Positions 4,101-48,522 of a stretch of DNA of 64,000 bases are shown here, piece by piece (the stretch's first letter is position 1; each line of letters opens with the position of its first letter). The position numbers were made by a program, and so were the translations under genes. The stretch is from IMG/VR virus record IMGVR_UViG_3300025126_000016, positions 10,264-74,263 of that record, one strand, 5' to 3'. The notes under the pieces are model-generated. The model was not told the origin of the DNA. It did not search any database and saw only the letters and a list, made by a program, of their open reading frames with translations. The stretch comes from a virus (lineage: Duplodnaviria; Caudoviricetes).

Positions 4101-5928
4101 CTGCTGAGCGAAGGCGGCGAAGAACTTCATTCAGCCCCAAAACCTTAACGTCGATATCCGAGGTGCTTAAACCAATTCTTTGAAGCTGATCGATTAGCTT
4201 CTGCGAAGGGTTCATAAGATCGACCAGCATCTGACGAAGACCTGTGGCAGCGGTCGAGCCTCTAACACCGGCGTCGGCCAGCGAGGCGGTCGTGGCAACG
4301 AGTTCTTCAATCGTTACGTTGTTGGCAGCAGCGGTGTTACCAAGGTACTGCAAAGATTGCTGAACTTGGCTAACGCCCAGCTTCGATTCGTTCAGTGTCG
4401 TAACCAAGATATCGGTCACACGGCTGGCTTCACTCGCAGACATCTGGAAGGCACCCAGGGCCGAGGTAAGAATGTCAACGGACTCGGCGGGAGTCGAGCC
4501 GGAAGCGGCAGAAAGATTAACGACGCTCTGTAGCATCATCTTAAGTTCTTCACCGGCGAAACCTGCCTGAGCGATAATAGTGGCTGACTTGGTAAGCTCC
4601 ATCACACTATCAGCACTGTTCTTCGAGACCTCGAAGATGCCTGCGCTCAGTCGTTCCATTTCGGTAGTCGTGGAAGCAGACACGGCTTGCAACTGAGCAA
4701 GAGCATCTTCAAACTGAATAGCAAAGCTGATACCCTGTTGGATGCTGGAAATCAGGCCATAGATGGCCCCTGCAGCGACAGCGTAACTGGCGACACGACC
4801 GACGAGGGCACCTGCTCCGTAGGCTCCCCCACCTTTTTCAGTAAGGAAGTTACCTGGAGCAGCCTTTATTCCTGAGAAGAAACCACCCTTATATTCAGGG
4901 GTCTTGGGTGCAGCACTCTGCTCCCGATTACGCATCGCAATCGTCTCACCAATCTCTCTCTGGAGAAGCTTGTAGCGAGCGATAAGCTGATCAATACGAG
5001 CAGCGTTCTGCTGTTCAACCGGCTTGGCTAGCTCGGCGTTAAGCTGTCTCTTGGCTGTGATCAGGAAGTTGGTTTGGTTGGCGAGGCGCTGCTGTGAGTC
5101 GGCGATGCGGCGATAAGCCGAAGCTTCCCCGATAAGCTCGCGGTTCTTGAGACTACGTTCACCCTTGCGAGTAGCATCCGCAAGCAGAGCTTCTCTCTGC
5201 AACCGGGAATTAGTCAGAATCTGACGACCCTCTTCGCGCAGGGCTTCAATATTCAGACGAGTCTTTGCTTCGATCTTTTCTCTGGCACGAAGCTGATCCC
5301 CCATTGCGCCGAGTGCTTGTCTGGTGCTAGCGATCTGAGTAGAGTAGTCAGTCTTGAAACCGCCAGTTGCAAATGCTTTGGCGTTGGCCTTATCCAGCCG
5401 CTCAAACTGGTCAAGCATAGGAGCGAAGGCCTTTTGACCATCGCGGCTAAGCATCTGGATACGAGTGCGATAGTCGTCCGCAGTTCTGCTTAACTTAGCG
5501 TAAGCTTGAGCATTGTTTTGTAGATTGGCGTAGGCTCTCTGGTGAAAATCAGTAACCTCAACGCCGCGACGAGCCATCTTACCAAAGCTGGTATCTAAGT
5601 CTCGGATACGACCGCGAAGAACATCCACGGAGCGACCGTACTGATTGGTGGCGTTTCCTAATTCTGCGTAGGCACGGGCACGTTTACCGAGGGCCTGCAG
5701 AGATTCGGCCCCACCCATTCTTCTATTGGCATTGAAATTGGCTACAGCATCCAAGTTCTTGGAGGTCATCGCCAATGTTTTAATCTGTTGGGCAGCGACA
5801 GCACCAGCCTTATTCATCTTAGCAATAGTGTTATCCAAGCGCTTGTTCAGAACAGACAGCGCGTTTTCCATCCCCTTCGGGGTTAAATTAATGCCTACTT
5901 GAGCATTGATTTCATTATTAGCTGCCAT
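1177..5928 (-). CDS. Tail tape measure protein
   Basis: 1583 aa, Ala-rich helical; TP901-type core (FEDALAQLQAVS...GSTAATGLRQML); C-terminal GGG...GEYVIR motif. Confidence 0.95.
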   Translation of the reverse strand: MAANNEINAQVGINLTPKGMENALSVLNKRLDNTIAKMNKAGAVAAQQIKTLAMTSKNLDAVANFNANRRMGGAESLQALGKRARAYAELGNATNQYGRSVDVLRGRIRDLDTSFGKMARRGVEVTDFHQRAYANLQNNAQAYAKLSRTADDYRTRIQMLSRDGQKAFAPMLDQFERLDKANAKAFATGGFKTDYSTQIASTRQALGAMGDQLRAREKIEAKTRLNIEALREEGRQILTNSRLQREALLADATRKGERSLKNRELIGEASAYRRIADSQQRLANQTNFLITAKRQLNAELAKPVEQQNAARIDQLIARYKLLQREIGETIAMRNREQSAAPKTPEYKGGFFSGIKAAPGNFLTEKGGGAYGAGALVGRVASYAVAAGAIYGLISSIQQGISFAIQFEDALAQLQAVSASTTTEMERLSAGIFEVSKNSADSVMELTKSATIIAQAGFAGEELKMMLQSVVNLSAASGSTPAESVDILTSALGAFQMSASEASRVTDILVTTLNESKLGVSQVQQSLQYLGNTAAANNVTIEELVATTASLADAGVRGSTAATGLRQMLVDLMNPSQKLIDQLQRIGLSTSDIDVKVLGLNEVLRRLRSAGFEAYGAMETRAAAAYVAASRNIENTERLLVLSEKEGAAQEAAAVRVDSLEARWQRLWNTMAEFGAGIGENLIPVLKLLLVLLEGIVVSIGAIAELITRPLKAFGLLTQEANYSSVSLKEAAASFEAAGYSAEEAAVRAAQMGDSLGDVTTALKDTSAQMASLEMDQLSLRDETQKLIMREEELAGANGNLNETTTGVSSAVSQLSSRFPGLRDEFSKTQGGIAGLIQSLVNLDRKAQETLRNLAQTALAQADMERKNALQELGGVSGKFSRDSRVSFTPRTRRENPQLVRDTERLQTLMRSNTTSSLQQAHSLLLKNPALQQRYPTTYASLTTALDSYTRARQDTDLYTERLGTAEFALTDQGQELIRSMQEDTGRSTRAASQGNSGGMNRAQLEAQFTQRERRYDEIESEVADNPYAATLLEQARASTRAARNRMAPPVDKEAAKDAERAASKAEREARRREEELERIDARIAKEELEYRQELYNNTLDTFKNAPKLDDLPDVLDDLDDQLDSWLTGEAELSMQQIEALNPSREQRAKMMATAGRKIEQMRVEEVKRMADTLAAVLKNFIDTSVEAIDDDFKQAMRPTEQALAIAQARVQGLNNPLGNENTPEYMKTVVQNRSDIAERNNQFASVAANEERIRQLTELAAEVAEQKRRIEQDLSRMEEFVAQEGVKEGEAIVVRGQLEESRITLRGIEEELGNIDTRTEDLIDANAALMASYGVLREVPMTFGGGMRMALEAMKLEIGAADGLGQELIKNLDQPLRALHSSFKGFFSDVVSGTVTLGGAFKNMAATIIDAMLEMVAVALANQFFSILAGAIGGPNMSGLSSKFGSATDSLASWGLWRGGEVPAPKQPKGYYGGGSISSGLPTRDSTLINAAQGEYVIRRPAAQSIGKGFLDAINARGAHALKDAGPQMNIMQASAAPPVNVYVVAPEEKPTMGPNDVLATFSNDVLKGGVTKKLIQQVARNG

Positions 5929-23335: not shown

Positions 23336-23659
23336 TTGACTGACAGTGACGTAAAAGAATTAGCAAATGTAATATACCACGAGGCCCGAGGAGAGTCTAG
23401 GCAAGGCCAGATCGCTGTAGGGCAGGTTGTTATGAACCGCGTGGCCGATCCCAGATACCCGAACACGATCCGAGGGGTGATCTGGCAACCGAAACAGTTT
23501 TCGAATATGCGTTATCACGGCAATTGGAGACGCTGTGAGGGGGTCGCTCGGGAGGTTTTGAGCGGCGAATGCGAAGCAGTGGTCGGAAATTCGTTGAGTT
23601 TTCGGTCATTTCGGCCCAAAAATTACCGATATCGGGTCGGAAATCACTATTTTTTCTGA
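23336..23659 (+). CDS. SleB-like cell wall hydrolase (Hydrolase_2)
   Basis: LANVIYHEARGE, VGQVVMNRV, YPNTIRGVIWQPKQFS, VGNHYF motifs; TTG start with AGGAG. Confidence 0.9.
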   Translation: MTDSDVKELANVIYHEARGESRQGQIAVGQVVMNRVADPRYPNTIRGVIWQPKQFSNMRYHGNWRRCEGVAREVLSGECEAVVGNSLSFRSFRPKNYRYRVGNHYFF

Positions 23660-23673
23660 TTTTCAACAATTTA

Positions 23674-23713
23674 GGCCCTAATGACGCGTGTATTGGTCAT
23701 TAGGGCCTTTTTT
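23674..23713 (+). terminator. Intrinsic terminator between convergent sleB-like gene and tRNA cluster
   Basis: 12-bp stem GGCCCTAATGAC/GTCATTAGGGCC plus T-tract. Confidence 0.75.
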
Positions 23714-23801
23714 GACTCATGCATGAGTCAATGTTCCCGTTCGGGGTAATTTTAGGGGTTTGGGCCTGAATCTGGCTCTTTTGTTCCCGTTCGGGAAAAA
23801 T

Positions 23802-23887
23802 TGGTGCGTCTGGGAGGACTCGAACCTCCAAAGGTATCTGTGTTTGAAACAGTGCCGTATTCCAGTTCCGACTTAGCCCACAGACGC
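23802..23887 (-). tRNA. trnL: tRNA-Leu(CAA), expanded D region and shortened variable arm
   Basis: GCGTCTG/CAGACGC acceptor, A73-CCA, loop TTCAAAC, T-arm GGAGG-TTCGAGT-CCTCC. Confidence 0.8.
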
Positions 23888-23892
23888 GAAAA

Positions 23893-23978
23893 TGGTAGGA
23901 GCGGCGAGACTCGAACTCGCAAAGGTCACCGCTTCTAAGGCGGCGGGGTATTCCATTTTCCACTTAGCCCACGCTCCC
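23893..23978 (-). tRNA. trnL: tRNA-Leu(TAG), expanded D region and shortened variable arm
   Basis: GGGAGCG/CGCTCCT acceptor, loop CTTAGAA, A73-CCA. Confidence 0.85.
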
Positions 23979-23992
23979 ACATGGTTTTGGAT

Positions 23993-24077
23993 TGGTCCGT
24001 GGGTGTGGACTCGAACCACTCCCGTTTCCGGTCACGTTTTACAGACGATCTGCTGGAACCCCCAGCTTTACCCACGG
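23993..24077 (-). tRNA. trnY: tRNA-Tyr(GTA), atypical (C1-G72)
   Basis: CCGTGGG/CCCACGG acceptor, loop CTGTAAA, variable stem CCG-GAAA-CGG, A73-CCA. Confidence 0.75.
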
Positions 24078-24081
24078 ATTT

Positions 24082-24172
24082 TGGAGGAAGCAGCTGGTCC
24101 CTATCCAGATGCCATATCTCAGGCACGTACGGATTAGCAATCCGTCCCAGACAGGTGTCTGGTTCTGCTTCC
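24082..24172 (-). tRNA. trnS: tRNA-Ser(GCT), atypical T-loop and D-arm
   Basis: GGAAGCA/TGCTTCC acceptor, ACGGA-TTGCTAA-TCCGT anticodon arm, long variable arm, T-loop ATAGGGA, U73-CCA. Confidence 0.7.
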
Positions 24173-24182
24173 GTGTCAATGT

Positions 24183-24239
24183 TGGAGGAGGGTAGAGGAA
24201 TCGAACCCCTAGGGATTTCAAGACCCGTTTGCACCCTCC
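24183..24239 (-). tRNA. 57-nt tRNA-Ser(TGA)-like RNA lacking D-arm and variable arm
   Basis: GGAGGGT/ACCCTCC acceptor, loop CTTGAAA, T-arm AGGGG-TTCGATT-CCTCT, U73-CCA; only about 5 nt between acceptor and anticodon stems. Confidence 0.75.
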
Positions 24240-24264
24240 TTCGAGGGCAGACACATGCCCTCGG

Positions 24265-24318
24265 TCAGTCTAGGAGACTGAGTCGATAGGACGATAAAGG
24301 TGACAGGTTGTTTCTCAT
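24265..24318 (-). CDS. Leader peptide MRNNLSPLSSYRLSLLD (candidate attenuator uORF, probably leaderless)
   Basis: 17 codons, 10 Leu/Ser/Tyr; ATG 5 nt after the -10 box; stop 25 nt before the Ser/Ser/Tyr/Leu/Leu tRNA run. Confidence 0.7.
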   Translation of the reverse strand: MRNNLSPLSSYRLSLLD

Positions 24319-24323
24319 GGGGG

Positions 24324-24352
24324 TCAATTAGACGTTGATGGTTTCGTTGTCA
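24324..24352 (-). promoter_or_regulatory. Sigma70-like promoter for leader plus class II tRNA operon
   Basis: TTGACA-17 nt-TAATTG on minus strand, predicted +1 at or next to the leader AUG. Confidence 0.65.
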
Positions 24353-24849
24353 AGAGGGTACTTGACTGGTGTGCTTGGAATCCGCTTGATCCTCAAGGAC
24401 AGGAGCTTGACTAGGCGACTGAGCCAGTATCTCGATTCCAGTTCTTCCACGGTTACTCGGCGACGGGCAGCTTCCATGATGGTGTACCGTCTGTCTCCTA
24501 CCCAATAGCATTCTGCTGCGTGACCGAAGAGGTCGAAGTCATCAGAGTCCACCTTGCGAACGAAGACTGCACTCAGTCCCCAAGCAAGTAGCCCCAGTGC
24601 CGGATGCACGAACAGGGCAATGATCAATGCAGGGATAAAGCCGGGCACCCAAGTGATCCAGCTTTCGAAAATCTCATGGGCTGCGGTAGCCTGCCTGTCT
24701 TGGTTTCTTTCTCGGAACCAGTCCTCGTCTGCCAGCCAGAACCAGAATGGGTTGTTCGTACCCGAGGCTCCTTGGCGAAACTTGAATGGCCAGATGCCAA
24801 GCATTGGGCCGATGAGGAGGATGAAGGCAGTGAGGAAGAAATATGTCAT
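24328..24849 (-). CDS. Membrane protein
   Basis: Start MTYFFL; N-terminal and central hydrophobic segments. Confidence 0.6.
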   Translation of the reverse strand: MTYFFLTAFILLIGPMLGIWPFKFRQGASGTNNPFWFWLADEDWFRERNQDRQATAAHEIFESWITWVPGFIPALIIALFVHPALGLLAWGLSAVFVRKVDSDDFDLFGHAAECYWVGDRRYTIMEAARRRVTVEELESRYWLSRLVKLLSLRIKRIPSTPVKYPLDNETINV

Positions 24850-24902
24850 GAGCGCCTTATACCACTCAATATGCGATCTGCCAATAGGGGTGATTTTTGT
24901 AT

Positions 24903-24960
24903 CAAGTTGCAAACTTATTATATTTTTTTACTTTTCCTAGAGACTCTAAAATATATAATA
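24903..24960 (+). repeat. AT-rich 58-bp element, copy 1 of 3
   Basis: CAAGTTGCAAACTTATTATATTTT...GAGACTCTAAAATATATAATA; recurs at 28199 and 48427. Confidence 0.85.
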
Positions 24961-25074
24961 GAACCTAAATGTCATTCATCCTGAGTCAAGGTAAAGATGC
25001 TAAGGACTGATTTCCCGAGGCGTTTCCTTTCCGCCTTGAAGACCCAGAGACAATTGCGTGTCCTCTTTGGGTGT

Positions 25075-27935: not shown

Positions 27936-28184
27936 ATGATCTTGCAGAGCAATCTGAATATCCAACCGAGGAGGACGAAGATGTGTGCGATACCCCAACC
28001 AACTGAGGATTGGCCATGTTCGGCCATGTATCATGAGGACGAGAACTCAGGCGCAATGTCCCTGATGTTCGAGAGACCCCTATCAGCCAATGAGAGATAC
28101 AGAGTCCGCCACCAAATCACCACCAATAGCCATTGGTTGGACGAGCAGACGCTTTTCATACCTGATCTGGCATTCACCGAATAG
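27936..28184 (+). CDS. Hypothetical early protein
   Basis: 82 aa ORF; start uncertain. Confidence 0.4.
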   Translation: MILQSNLNIQPRRTKMCAIPQPTEDWPCSAMYHEDENSGAMSLMFERPLSANERYRVRHQITTNSHWLDEQTLFIPDLAFTE

Positions 28185-28198
28185 GGTAATTTTTTATA

Positions 28199-28257
28199 CA
28201 AGTTGCAAACTTATTATATTTTTTTTAATTTCCGAGAGAGTCTAAAAATATATAATA
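28199..28257 (+). repeat. AT-rich 58-bp element, copy 2
   Basis: Near-identical to 24903-24960. Confidence 0.85.
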
Positions 28258-28438
28258 AGGACCAAAACTTGTTCAGCACTGGTTAAGAGACAGAGCCAGA
28301 TTCACCCTCAGATGCTGGGCGTGGGTCTGGCTCTCGTCAATGCAGCCTTCGCTAAACCATCCACCATATCGACCGTCAGGTGTTTGTGACCGAGAAACTG
28401 GACGCATTCGCCATGCTCGTACTACTGGAGAAAATCAT

Positions 28439-42020: not shown

Positions 42021-42590
42021 CACTTGGAAACAGGTGCTGGAAGATATTCAGAAAGTGTGTCCCTCTGCCGTACTGGCAGGGGGCGCACTCCGAGACCTAG
42101 TGTTTGATGTCGAGGTCAAGGACTTGGATATCTTCATCGAAGCTGGCAATGAGAACGAAGCTTGGGGCAGTTTCAAAGCCTTGGGCGGGAAGATTCCTGA
42201 GCCTCAGAAAATTATGGGTGGCTTGTCCTGCATTGATGAGAGGGTGTCTACCCTCAGAGTATGCAGGAAGTTATCCTAGTCGAGGACTACGCAGGAGACA
42301 ACCCAACAGGTATCCCTATACAGTTGATCTTCGTTAACTGGAAAACGGAGCGCAGTCACGAACGGTTCGACATCGGCATCTGCCGTATCAGTTACGATGG
42401 AAGGGATGTCAGTATCTCCCGTGATTTCGAGCAAGATTCCTCGGATCAAGTGATCAACATCAGGCGGTGCGAAAATAAGTGGATGCTTGGTGCCACTATC
42501 AACAGGTATCTGAGATTGAAGAAGAAATATCCCGATTGGGAGATAAAATTGGATGGAGTAGACCTCAAGGAGGTTGACACTCATATCTGA
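42004..42590 (+). pseudogene. tRNA nucleotidyltransferase/poly(A) polymerase head-domain-like protein split into two overlapping frames
   Basis: GGALRD...KDLDIF in 42004-42279; RFDIGICRI and RYLRLKKKY in 42261-42590; -1 frame open from 42240. Confidence 0.7.
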
Positions 42591-43638: not shown

Positions 43639-43720
43639 ACCCTCGTAACCAGTTCGGTCTTCTACACCGCTATCTGTAATGGAGTTGAAAATGTGGGTTC
43701 GAGTCGCACCTAGGGTTCCA
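43639..43720 (+). ncRNA. tRNA-like RNA with undetermined anticodon
   Basis: ACCCTCG/CTAGGGT acceptor, T-arm GTGGG-TTCGAGT-CGCAC, U73-CCA; core region non-canonical. Confidence 0.65.
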
Positions 43721-43743
43721 TTCTAATCTAAAAGGAAATATCT

Positions 43744-44240: not shown

Positions 44241-44313
44241 GCGGGTGTGGCTATGCTAGCCAGCTGGCCTTCCAAGCCATGCCAAGAGGGTTGGATTCCC
44301 TCCATCCGCTCCA
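44241..44313 (+). tRNA. trnG: tRNA-Gly(TCC), reduced D-loop
   Basis: Loop CTTCCAA, U73-CCA; D-arm GGCTA-TGC-TAGCC; T-loop TTGGATT. Confidence 0.8.
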
Positions 44314-47225: not shown

Positions 47226-48436
47226 TGCTACCTGATTGGTTGATCACTCTGGTTCAGGAGAATGAGTTCGCGCAGGGGGCGTTGATAGCGGCCCCTGCTA
47301 CGGCTCTGACGTATACTGCTCGGAATGTTCCATTGAAAATTTGGGATAGTATGAGGCACTTTGTGAGTTACGATCTTACGTTTCGTTCTGATAAGGACGA
47401 ATATTATTACGTGAACAAGATCGTTACGGAGCAAATGATTTCTACTAAGTGGTCTCGTGAGTTCACCTACGAGAACATTTCAATGTGGGATGAGGCCGAA
47501 GCGAAGGACAAGGAAATCTATTCCGGTATGGCCATCGGTTACGGTCGCCATTGGGGTAAGTATAAAGGCAAGCCTGTCATTGTCCACCGGCACATGGAAG
47601 AGAGTAGTGCCACTGAGGTCTTCAAGGAACTACTGACGGTCACGTTCCTTGGCTTTGGGACCAAGGGTGTTGCACAATTTTGTGATGAGGTAGCTGATAC
47701 GATGAGAAAAGAGAGCCAGGAACAGAGGCTTAAGCTGCGACGGAACGGTCGTAACTGCTGGTCTTCGCATGGGTATTTGCCTCTGCGACCGATGAGTAGC
47801 GTGTTCACTAGTGGTAATCTGAAAGAAAACTTGAGTGAGGCTATTCAAAACTTTCATGATAGCGAAGCAGAGTATCGTGAGAAGGGTATCCCATACCACT
47901 TGGGCATGTTGCTCAAGGGACCACCGGGTACTGGCAAGACCAGTCTGATCCATGCGCTCGCCTCGAAGCTCAAGAGAGATATCCTGTTCCTTAACCTGTC
48001 GGGGGTTGAGGACGAGAACGAACTGATGGAGCTTATTGGGTGCCGTTGTGACTGGCACAAGAGCATCCTCGTGATCGAAGACATCGACGCGGTGAAAGCT
48101 AACGTGGCAAGAGACTCGGACTCAGATGGTATCTCCCTGTCTACTCTGCTCAATGTGCTGGACGGTTTCCTCACCCCTCATGGTCTGGTCACGATTGCGA
48201 CCACGAACCATCCTGAGAAACTGGACCCGGCTCTGATCCGCAGCGGTCGATTTGACATTGTGGCAGAAATGGGGCCGCTTGATTGGGCAGAGGCGGAGCA
48301 AATGGCAAGCCTGCTGATGGGTGAAAAGAACCATTTTGGTGAGTTTCGTGAAATCTATACACCAAAAGTAGGTGCTGAGCTACGGGAAGCGATGTTGAAC
48401 CGGTCTCTTTCGAGGCTTTTTCTCTCTAAGTTGTAA
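47225..48436 (+). CDS. BCS1-like AAA+ ATPase
   Basis: N-terminal TM segment, RPMSSVF, YREKGIPYHLGMLLKGPPGTGKTS, IEDID, TTNHPEKLDPALIRSGRFD. Confidence 0.88.
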   Translation: MLPDWLITLVQENEFAQGALIAAPATALTYTARNVPLKIWDSMRHFVSYDLTFRSDKDEYYYVNKIVTEQMISTKWSREFTYENISMWDEAEAKDKEIYSGMAIGYGRHWGKYKGKPVIVHRHMEESSATEVFKELLTVTFLGFGTKGVAQFCDEVADTMRKESQEQRLKLRRNGRNCWSSHGYLPLRPMSSVFTSGNLKENLSEAIQNFHDSEAEYREKGIPYHLGMLLKGPPGTGKTSLIHALASKLKRDILFLNLSGVEDENELMELIGCRCDWHKSILVIEDIDAVKANVARDSDSDGISLSTLLNVLDGFLTPHGLVTIATTNHPEKLDPALIRSGRFDIVAEMGPLDWAEAEQMASLLMGEKNHFGEFREIYTPKVGAELREAMLNRSLSRLFLSKL

Positions 48437-48484
48437 ACTTGTTATATATTTTTAGATTCCCGAGAGATTCTAAAATATATAATA
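48427..48484 (+). repeat. AT-rich 58-bp element, copy 3
   Basis: TAAGTTGTAAACTTGTTATATATTTTTAGA...TCTAAAATATATAATA with near-perfect internal inverted repeat. Confidence 0.8.
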
Positions 48485-48522
48485 CACTATAAGGATAGTT
48501 ACAAACGTAACCAAGTTAACTC

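What the first reader, a model, noticed from the sequence alone, without database searches (positions are those of the whole stretch)
24183..24239. 57-nt tRNA-Ser(UGA)-like RNA lacking both D-arm and variable arm
Seen: perfect acceptor stem, canonical T-arm, U33/A37 anticodon loop and encoded CCA, but the D-arm is replaced by about 5 nt and the long variable arm is gone. Established: bacterial SerRS depends on the long variable arm, and D-armless tRNA-Ser is known mainly from animal mitochondria. Clean loss of two arms with intact ends argues against random decay. Inference: a nuclease decoy, an uncharged-tRNA mimic, or the RNase P-cleavable switch element of the upstream leader.
Basis: partly seen in the sequence, partly recalled or inferred. 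Interest (0 to 1): 0.8.

Follow-up and report, generated by a model that had tools for sequence, protein, structure and literature searches.

The report
Cut-down remnant of phage serine tRNA
A phage from aquifer metagenomes carries a 57-base serine-tRNA look-alike that has lost two of its four arms; related phages have the full-length gene at the same spot, so it is most likely a recently truncated leftover and not a new kind of working tRNA.

Summary
At window 24239..24183 (minus strand) lies a 57-nt element with a perfect 7-bp acceptor stem, a 5-bp T-stem with a UUCGAUU loop, a CUUGAAA anticodon loop (UGA) and an encoded U73-CCA. It has no D-arm and no variable arm.

It opens a minus-strand operon of five non-canonical class-II-type tRNAs: Ser, Ser, Tyr, Leu, Leu. 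Three syntenic relatives (contigs L071 and L078, Erythrobacter phage XM05) carry an 89-90 nt (8/4)-type tRNA-Ser at the same position. Alignment shows the element is that gene minus 12 nt (D hairpin) and minus 20 nt (end of the anticodon stem plus the variable arm).

The deletions are real: contigs assembled separately from four aquifer runs are identical here, at depth up to 629.

I found no second truncated copy in IMG/VR, JGI metagenomes, GenBank phages or 786 kb of fetched phage loci. The tRNA-like fold is not the predicted favoured fold, no SerRS is encoded, and bacterial serine identity depends on the missing arm.

Best reading, at 0.6: a truncated relic of a known phage (8/4) tRNA-Ser. 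It is probably still co-transcribed and excised. A selected non-decoding role is not excluded (about 0.2). Expression could not be tested.

The parts
24183..24239 (-). 57-nt truncated tRNA-Ser(UGA)-derived element (element A): acceptor stem, 5-nt connector, weak anticodon hairpin, T-arm, U73, CCA
   Evidence: Sequence read. Rfam tRNA-Sec model 23.6 bits with the D/variable-arm block empty. Aligns to full-length relatives with two gaps of 12 and 20 nt. Identical in contigs of four runs.
24233..24239 (-). Acceptor stem, 5' strand (GGAGGGU). It pairs 7/7 with 24187-24193. The same 7-mer occurs in L071, L078 and XM05.
24228..24232 (-). Connector GCAAA that stands where the D-arm is in relatives (12-nt deletion)
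   Evidence: Pairwise alignments. L071 has GC on both sides of the deleted block (2-nt microhomology).
24211..24227 (-). Anticodon hairpin: loop CUUGAAA, anticodon UGA at 24218-24220. The stem has three G-C pairs plus C.U and U.U.
   Evidence: Relatives have 5-6 paired positions here.
24194..24210 (-). T-arm: 5-bp stem (one G.U) with loop UUCGAUU. It follows the anticodon hairpin directly, at the site of the 20-nt variable-arm deletion.
24183..24193 (-). Acceptor 3' strand, discriminator U73 and encoded CCA
   Evidence: The genome-wide acceptor/T-arm/NCCA scan recovers it.
24241..24300 (-). Leader directly upstream, with two hairpins (24280-24266 and 24263-24242). It is conserved in L071 and L078 ahead of their full-length tRNA-Ser.
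   Evidence: Fold z-score -4.9. Sequences. The pattern scan finds it only in the L071 contig.
23802..24172 (-). The rest of the operon: Ser(GCU) 24172-24082, Tyr(GUA) 24077-23993, Leu(UAG) 23978-23893, Leu(CAA) 23887-23802. All encode CCA and all are non-canonical.
   Evidence: The same gene order occurs in L071 and L078.

Best explanation
Element A is a truncated descendant of the phage's (8/4)-type tRNA-Ser(UGA) gene, the first gene of a five-tRNA operon.

Shown: two deletions removed the D hairpin (12 nt) and the variable arm together with the last two bases of the anticodon stem (20 nt).

Inferred:
- The operon is still transcribed, and the intact acceptor/T-arm half with its CCA can still be recognised by RNase P and the 3'-end processing enzymes. 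A 57-nt RNA is therefore probably released as a by-product.
- It is not charged by the host SerRS, which relies on the variable arm and the tertiary shape.
- It does not decode. The phage has simply lost its own UCN-reading serine tRNA.
- The intact ends reflect a recent event, or a weak need for correct processing of the operon, and not a new dedicated function.
For: (1) Homology and synteny. L071, L078 and phage XM05 carry 89-90 nt tRNA-Ser genes with the same acceptor 7-mer at the head of the same Ser-Ser-Tyr-Leu-Leu or Ser-Tyr-Leu array, between the same flanking blocks. Global alignments place exactly two gaps, 12 and 20 nt, over the D and variable arms.
(2) Model scores. The full-length relatives score 35-44 bits on Rfam tRNA-Sec, as expected for 8/4 tRNAs; A scores 23.6 bits with that block empty.
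(3) No second example. An IMG/VR pattern scan gave 67 hits, all 80-91 nt. A JGI metagenome scan for the short form gave 0. No GenBank phage covers 80% or more of A. Among 583 tRNA-sized acceptor/T-arm structures in 786 kb of fetched phage DNA, only A is a convincing short form.
(4) Signs of lost constraint. The anticodon stem is reduced to three pairs. The tRNA-like fold has about 0.2% ensemble probability, whereas L078 and XM05 fold into 8/4 cloverleaves at minimum energy.
(5) No phage SerRS in the 74-kb record. Serine identity rests mainly on the variable arm (PMC9976931).
(6) Precedent. Phage tRNA clusters hold annotated tRNA pseudogenes, for example KVP40 tRNA-Pseudo-2. The same genome has a second degenerate tRNA-like stretch at 43641-43722.
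Against: The acceptor stem (7/7), T-stem (5/5), T-loop, anticodon loop and CCA are all intact. A long-dead pseudogene would not be expected to look like this.

The retained columns are 86% identical to a distant phage's tRNA-Ser. That is more than the 71-75% identity between this phage and L071/L078 across the neighbouring tRNAs.

Two separate deletions that each remove exactly one arm are an unusual pattern.

The form is the one assembled in all four runs laid, at depth up to 629, so it is not strongly deleterious.

The Tyr tRNA next door also has only three good anticodon-stem pairs. A weak stem is therefore not by itself proof of decay in this phage.
Confidence: 0.6

Rival explanations
1. 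A selected, non-decoding tRNA-like RNA. The retained acceptor/T-arm half plus the Ser-type anticodon loop could act as a sponge or decoy for a host factor that attacks tRNA-Ser, such as an anticodon-loop nuclease or a 3'-end-modifying toxin. Alternatively it could serve as the RNase P/3'-processing signal that frees the structured leader and the next tRNA.
For: The top half and anticodon loop are intact despite two deletions. The element is fixed in the assembled population of four runs. It sits first in the operon, right after a strongly folded, conserved leader. Phage tRNAs are known to counter tRNA-targeting defences (PMC10264068, PMC11464382, PMC11555353).
Against: In those papers full-length, chargeable tRNAs replace or escape the nuclease's targets; none acts as an armless decoy. 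MenT3, the tRNA-Ser-specific toxin I could read about, needs the long variable loop and the D/T core (PMC11162799), both missing here. Relatives combine the same leader with a full-length tRNA, so processing does not need a minimal form. There is no conservation of the short form anywhere. The predicted fold disfavours a displayed anticodon hairpin.
Confidence: 0.22
2. A working minimal tRNA-Ser. Like D-armless mitochondrial tRNA-Ser, it would be charged with serine and read UCN codons on the host ribosome.
For: The shape resembles D-armless mt-tRNA-Ser: a 5-nt connector, a T-arm, a Ser anticodon and a length near 57 nt (PMC7609411). The phage uses UCN codons normally (37 per 1000) and has no other UCN-reading tRNA in the record.
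Against: Bacterial serine identity depends mainly on the variable arm and tertiary shape (PMC9976931). Mitochondrial armless tRNAs work with co-evolved SerRS (PMC9976931, PMC7609411), and no SerRS is encoded here. The anticodon stem has three pairs. The tRNA-like fold has about 0.2% ensemble probability. Relatives use the full-length form.
Confidence: 0.05
3. An assembly or sequencing artefact, or a minority allele, in which hairpins were skipped and the true genome holds a full-length gene.
For: Both gaps coincide with hairpins, which polymerases and assemblers can skip. All holders come from one aquifer campaign of 2017.
Against: Contigs assembled separately from four runs are identical over the whole 801-nt stretch. 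They show no inserted letters at either gap and no joint, at word depth 4.8 to 629. The neighbouring protein is on record on 24 contigs.
Confidence: 0.03

Closest known systems
(8/4) tRNA-Ser of alphaproteobacterial phages and some bacteria, part of the allo-tRNA group (Mukai et al. 2017, PMC5389517)
   Same: This is the parent family. Shared features are the GGAGGGU acceptor start, U73 (that paper reports G73 or U73), the Ser anticodon, a best match to the tRNA-Sec model, and a location in a phage tRNA cluster with an alpha-type two-piece tmRNA in the genome. Full-length members sit at the syntenic position in L071, L078 and XM05. Members with the same T-arm/acceptor 21-mer occur in Planctomycetota and Sulfidibacter.
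   Different: The family is defined by a long D-stem with a small loop and a long variable arm. Element A has neither, and it is 57 nt against 85-91.
[quoted passage not shown]
   Same: The D-arm is replaced by a short connector, the variable region is short, there is a Ser anticodon, and the size is 55-62 nt.
   Different: The mitochondrial forms are conserved across lineages and work with co-evolved SerRS. Element A is a singleton in a bacterial system, has a three-pair anticodon stem, and has no dedicated synthetase in the record.
tRNA pseudogenes in phage tRNA clusters, for example tRNA-Pseudo-2 of Vibrio phage KVP40 (AY283928.2)
   Same: A tRNA-derived stretch inside a phage tRNA array that fails tRNA models. 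The 3' part of A even aligns to KVP40's pseudo-tRNA.
   Different: The KVP40 example is near full length (82 nt). Here both arms are cut out cleanly and every remaining acceptor and T helix is perfect.
Acceptor/T-arm minihelices and tRNA-like processing signals such as mascRNA
   Same: The retained half is the part recognised by RNase P, CCA-adding enzyme and EF-Tu. This is why I infer that the RNA is still excised.
   Different: Those are model substrates or eukaryotic elements. No processing data exist for this RNA.

Membership tests
Bacterial class II tRNA-Ser (functional decoder) | Long variable arm (the main serine identity element) | tested here: not met
   No nucleotide lies between the anticodon hairpin and the T-stem. 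There is a 20-nt gap against relatives. The identity rule is from PMC9976931.
Bacterial class II tRNA-Ser (functional decoder) | D-arm giving the D/T-loop elbow | tested here: not met
   Replaced by GCAAA; 12-nt gap against relatives.
Bacterial class II tRNA-Ser (functional decoder) | Recognised by tRNA gene models | tested here: not met
   ARAGORN gives no call. Rfam RF00005 gives no hit at E<=10. RF01852 scores 23.6 bits, below the gathering score of 47.
Bacterial class II tRNA-Ser (functional decoder) | Serine anticodon in a 7-nt loop with U33 and a purine at 37 | tested here: met
   Loop CUUGAAA, anticodon UGA at 24220-24218.
(8/4) tRNA-Ser / allo-tRNA group (PMC5389517) | Descent from the family: sequence and position homologous to full-length members | tested here: met
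   Same acceptor 7-mer, anticodon loop and T-loop; 49/57 columns identical to XM05; syntenic with L071 and L078.
(8/4) tRNA-Ser / allo-tRNA group (PMC5389517) | 12-bp acceptor branch split 8/4 | tested here: inconclusive
   Both readings fit: 7/5, or 8/4 through a G8.U wobble. Their energies are -19.6 and -19.1 kcal/mol.
(8/4) tRNA-Ser / allo-tRNA group (PMC5389517) | Long D-stem with small loop, and long variable arm | tested here: not met
   Both are absent. They are present in L078 at minimum free energy.
D-armless mitochondrial-type tRNA-Ser | Armless form conserved among related genomes | tested here: not met
   No other short form in IMG/VR, JGI metagenomes, GenBank phages or the fetched loci. 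Relatives are full length.
D-armless mitochondrial-type tRNA-Ser | Dedicated or adapted SerRS | tested here: not met
   PF00587 and PF02403 are absent from the 74-kb record, with controls positive. The host enzyme is unknown.
D-armless mitochondrial-type tRNA-Ser | Aminoacylation and use in translation | not testable with these tools
   No RNA data were available. This needs charging assays.
tRNA pseudogene / truncated relic | Derived from a functional gene and lacking elements required for function | tested here: met
   The identity rules are from PMC9976931.
tRNA pseudogene / truncated relic | No function of the RNA product | not testable with these tools
   Expression, stability and phenotype are unknown.

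The most novel reading that the evidence does not exclude
The 57-nt RNA is a working tRNA without a D-arm or variable arm. It would be charged, by an unusual host or phage activity, and used on a bacterial ribosome to read UCN codons. That would be the first such armless decoder I know of outside organelles.
Probability: 0.05. Interest if true: 0.9.

Novelty: new member of a known kind. Interest (0 to 1): 0.3.

Why it matters
As a relic, it is a clean natural example of how hairpin-precise deletions turn a full tRNA gene into something that looks like a designed 'minimal tRNA'. It warns against reading function into such shapes without relatives.

It also shows that a phage lineage with a dedicated operon of remodelled class-II tRNAs can drop its UCN serine tRNA without visible cost.

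If the RNA proved stable and functional, it would extend armless tRNA biology from mitochondria to a bacterial virus. It would then bear on how much of a tRNA the bacterial processing, charging or defence machinery needs.

Tried and rejected
The 24 contigs that carry the neighbouring protein, and the 50%-identical relatives P0002 and P0003, could therefore not be fetched.
- The search for related loci with the upstream 194-aa ORF found no relative.
- Pattern scans for the leader and for the Tyr tRNA in IMG/VR found only the L071 contig. A scan for the odd Ser(GCU) tRNA found nothing.
- No RNA holder was listed among the sequencing runs, so expression is untested. Only contigs, not raw reads, could be laid, so minority alleles cannot be seen.
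- The sigma-70 consensus scan found no promoter in 23500-24500. This is uninformative.
- ARAGORN in mitochondrial mode does not call the element on its own strand.
- Serine codon usage shows no avoidance of UCA/UCN against relatives. This is not diagnostic.
- The genome-contig scan with the T-arm/acceptor 21-mer hit only full-length tRNA-Ser-like genes of unrelated bacteria, giving no host clue.
- Rejected: an attP-type tRNA fragment. The element holds both acceptor strands and sits inside a syntenic tRNA operon.
- Rejected: the leader hairpins as displaced D or variable arms, or a split or permuted tRNA. Relatives have both the hairpins and the arms.
- A MAFFT alignment of the Ser tRNAs was too poor at the 5' ends to build a covariance model. 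I used a direct structural scan instead.

Full report
**What is there.** The window is 64 kb of a 74-kb IMG/VR virus record. It encodes a tape measure protein, portal, large terminase, primase and rIIA. It also holds an alpha-type two-piece tmRNA and a plus-strand array of ordinary tRNAs at 43.9-45.4 kb.

On the minus strand at 24239..24183 lies the reported 57-nt element:
- a 7/7 Watson-Crick acceptor stem;
- a 5-nt connector (GCAAA);
- an anticodon hairpin with loop CUUGAAA (anticodon UGA);
- directly after it, a 5-bp T-stem with loop UUCGAUU;
- then U73 and an encoded CCA.

Three things were not mentioned. The anticodon stem has only three G-C pairs, flanked by C.U and U.U. ARAGORN and Rfam's tRNA model do not call the element, and the only hit is the tRNA-Sec model at 23.6 bits with the D/variable block empty. 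The three-way tRNA-like fold is 2.6 kcal/mol worse than a rod-like alternative, at about 0.2% of the ensemble.

**Context.** The element is the first of five CCA-encoding tRNA-like genes on the minus strand:
- Ser(UGA), the element itself;
- Ser(GCU), 24172-24082, 8/4 shape with an odd T-loop;
- Tyr(GUA), 24077-23993, 8/4;
- Leu(UAG), 23978-23893;
- Leu(CAA), 23887-23802, with a short variable region.

A strongly folded leader with two hairpins precedes it (24300-24241, z-score -4.9). A structural scan of the whole record found no other serine tRNA.

**Relatives.** The primase led to contig L071, and a Tyr-tRNA pattern led to the Tara contig L078. Both are 73-80% identical in DNA across the flanking genes and keep the same gene order. 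Both have the same leader hairpins, followed by a 90-nt tRNA-Ser(UGA), then Ser(GCU), Tyr, Leu, Leu. Erythrobacter phage XM05 has an 89-nt tRNA-Ser(CGA) with the same acceptor 7-mer, followed by Tyr and three Leu tRNAs.

Global alignment of the element to each relative gives two clean gaps against L071 and XM05. One of 12 nt covers the D hairpin. One of 20 nt covers the last two bases of the anticodon stem plus the variable arm. Of the retained columns, 49 of 57 are identical to XM05. In L071 the D-arm gap is flanked by GC on both sides, a 2-nt microhomology.

L078 and XM05 fold at minimum energy into 8/4 cloverleaves; L078 has a 6-bp D-stem with a 4-nt loop. All three full-length relatives match the tRNA-Sec model best, at 35-44 bits. 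This is the (8/4) tRNA-Ser type that Mukai et al. reported in tRNA clusters of alphaproteobacterial phages, with G73 or U73 (PMC5389517). The element is therefore a derived, cut-down member of a known phage tRNA family.

**Is the deletion real?** Twenty-two aquifer metagenome runs of 2017 hold this stretch. They are probably one sampling campaign. I laid Logan's separately assembled contigs of four of them on 23650-24450. All four are identical across the element, with no inserted letters at either gap and no joints, at word depth 4.8 to 629. A single-assembly artefact is excluded. Minority alleles cannot be seen in contigs.

**Is the short form found elsewhere?** No.
- A pattern that allows both forms gave 67 IMG/VR hits, all 80-91 nt.
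- A pattern specific to the short form gave nothing in JGI metagenomes.
- No GenBank phage matches more than the 3' 61% of the element.
- In 786 kb of fetched phage loci, a scan for acceptor plus T-arm structures found 583 of tRNA size. The element was the only convincing short one; three other short hits look like chance internal pairings of ordinary tRNAs.
- Bacterial genomes that share the exact T-arm/acceptor 21-mer show no 57-nt form. Where a 5' acceptor strand could be placed, in three of six matches, the genes are 80-81 nt.

**Function.** Serine identity in bacteria rests mainly on the variable arm and the tertiary shape (PMC9976931). D-armless mitochondrial tRNA-Ser work with co-evolved SerRS (PMC7609411, PMC9976931). 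The phage record encodes no SerRS. Codon usage gives no signal.

I therefore infer that the RNA is not charged and does not decode. The acceptor/T-arm half is intact and the operon must still be expressed for the four downstream tRNAs. So I infer that the RNA is still cut out by RNase P and 3'-end processing, as an inert by-product. This step rests on general knowledge of minihelix substrates, not on a test.

**Evidence against a plain relic.** All acceptor and T helices are perfect. The T-stem differs from XM05 by two fully compensated pairs. The retained sequence is better conserved than the neighbouring tRNAs are between this phage and L071/L078. These facts fit a recent truncation. They also leave room for a selected non-decoding role.

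For such a role I found no positive evidence. Published phage counter-defence tRNAs are full-length molecules (PMC10264068, PMC11464382, PMC11555353). The tRNA-Ser-specific toxin MenT3 needs the long variable loop (PMC11162799). The leader works with a full-length tRNA in relatives.

**Verdict.**
- Truncated relic of a phage (8/4) tRNA-Ser(UGA): 0.6.
- Selected tRNA-like decoy or processing element: about 0.2.
- Working armless decoder: about 0.05.
- Artefact or minority allele: about 0.03.

This is a new member of a known kind (tRNA remnants in phage tRNA clusters, compare KVP40), with an unusually tidy anatomy.

**Earlier notes of this scan.** They describe a similar cut-down tRNA leftover in another phage (e1-5707593) and claim a conserved D-armless tRNA-Arg family in phages (e1-185656). 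I did not test either. The second keeps me from setting the functional readings lower.

**Limits.** No RNA runs were listed. Only contigs, not reads, could be laid.

Noticed in passing
window 24082-24172 (-); L078 about 4534-4624 (+): A tRNA-Ser(GCU) with an 8-bp acceptor, 4-bp T-stem, 6-bp D-stem with a 4-nt loop, long variable arm, U73 and a non-standard T-loop (AUAGGGA). It folds to this cloverleaf at minimum energy (z-score -4.4). L078 has a homologue with changed stem sequences and T-loop AUCAAGA. Both ARAGORN and Rfam miss it.
   Followed up: partly
window 23993-24077 (-); L002 2501-2583; L003 about 2500-2584; L074-L079: An 8/4-type tRNA-Tyr(GUA) with a C1-G72 pair, a 5-bp D-stem and a small D-loop. 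The same type is present but unannotated in Rhodobacter phage RcXuper and Erythrobacter phage XM05, and in several metagenome contigs. ARAGORN misses it in the window and in most of the loci, though it does call it in L079 (tRNA-Tyr).
   Followed up: partly
window 23802-23887 and 23893-23978 (-): Two tRNA-Leu genes (CAA, UAG) with a short variable region of about 7 nt and an enlarged D region of about 25 nt. L071 and L078 also have a 77-nt Leu(CAA) without a long variable arm.
   Followed up: no
window 24241-24300 (-): A leader with two hairpins ahead of the tRNA operon (fold z-score -4.9). It is conserved with changed stem sequences in L071 and L078, has no Rfam match, and its role is unknown.
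   Followed up: partly
window 43641-43722 (+): A degenerate tRNA-like stretch ahead of the plus-strand tRNA array. It has a GUUCGAGUC T-loop motif, a CUGUAAU loop (Tyr-like) and a UCCA end, but mismatches in the acceptor and T stems. It shows no stable fold (z-score +1.1) and looks like a decayed tRNA.
   Followed up: partly
window 44241-44313 (+): A tRNA-like gene with a UCC anticodon (Gly) and T-loop UUGGAUU. Rfam finds it at 31.8 bits and my structural scan finds it, but ARAGORN does not.
   Followed up: no
window 24885-24975, 28180-28285, 48415-48500 (+); L071 14790-14885: An AT-rich repeat of 70-90 nt holding AAGTTGCAAACTT and TATATAATA, in three copies in the window and also in relatives. 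It is a candidate phage promoter element.
   Followed up: partly
window 23733-23746 and 23784-23797: Two copies of a TTCCCGTTCGGG-type palindrome just downstream of the tRNA operon. A similar motif opens the XM05 locus and lies in the L078 promoter region.
   Followed up: no
window 42070-42156 (+): A weak match (17.9 bits, below the cut-off) to the PolyA_pol / CCA-adding nucleotidyltransferase family in a 108-aa frame just upstream of the tmRNA. RcXuper has an annotated nucleotidyl transferase beside its tRNAs.
   Followed up: no
L071 14310-14399 (-): The full-length tRNA-Ser(UGA) of the relative L071 has an A.C mismatch in its T-stem and an extra U, giving an 8/5 arrangement. ARAGORN does not call it, so it may itself be impaired.
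   Followed up: no
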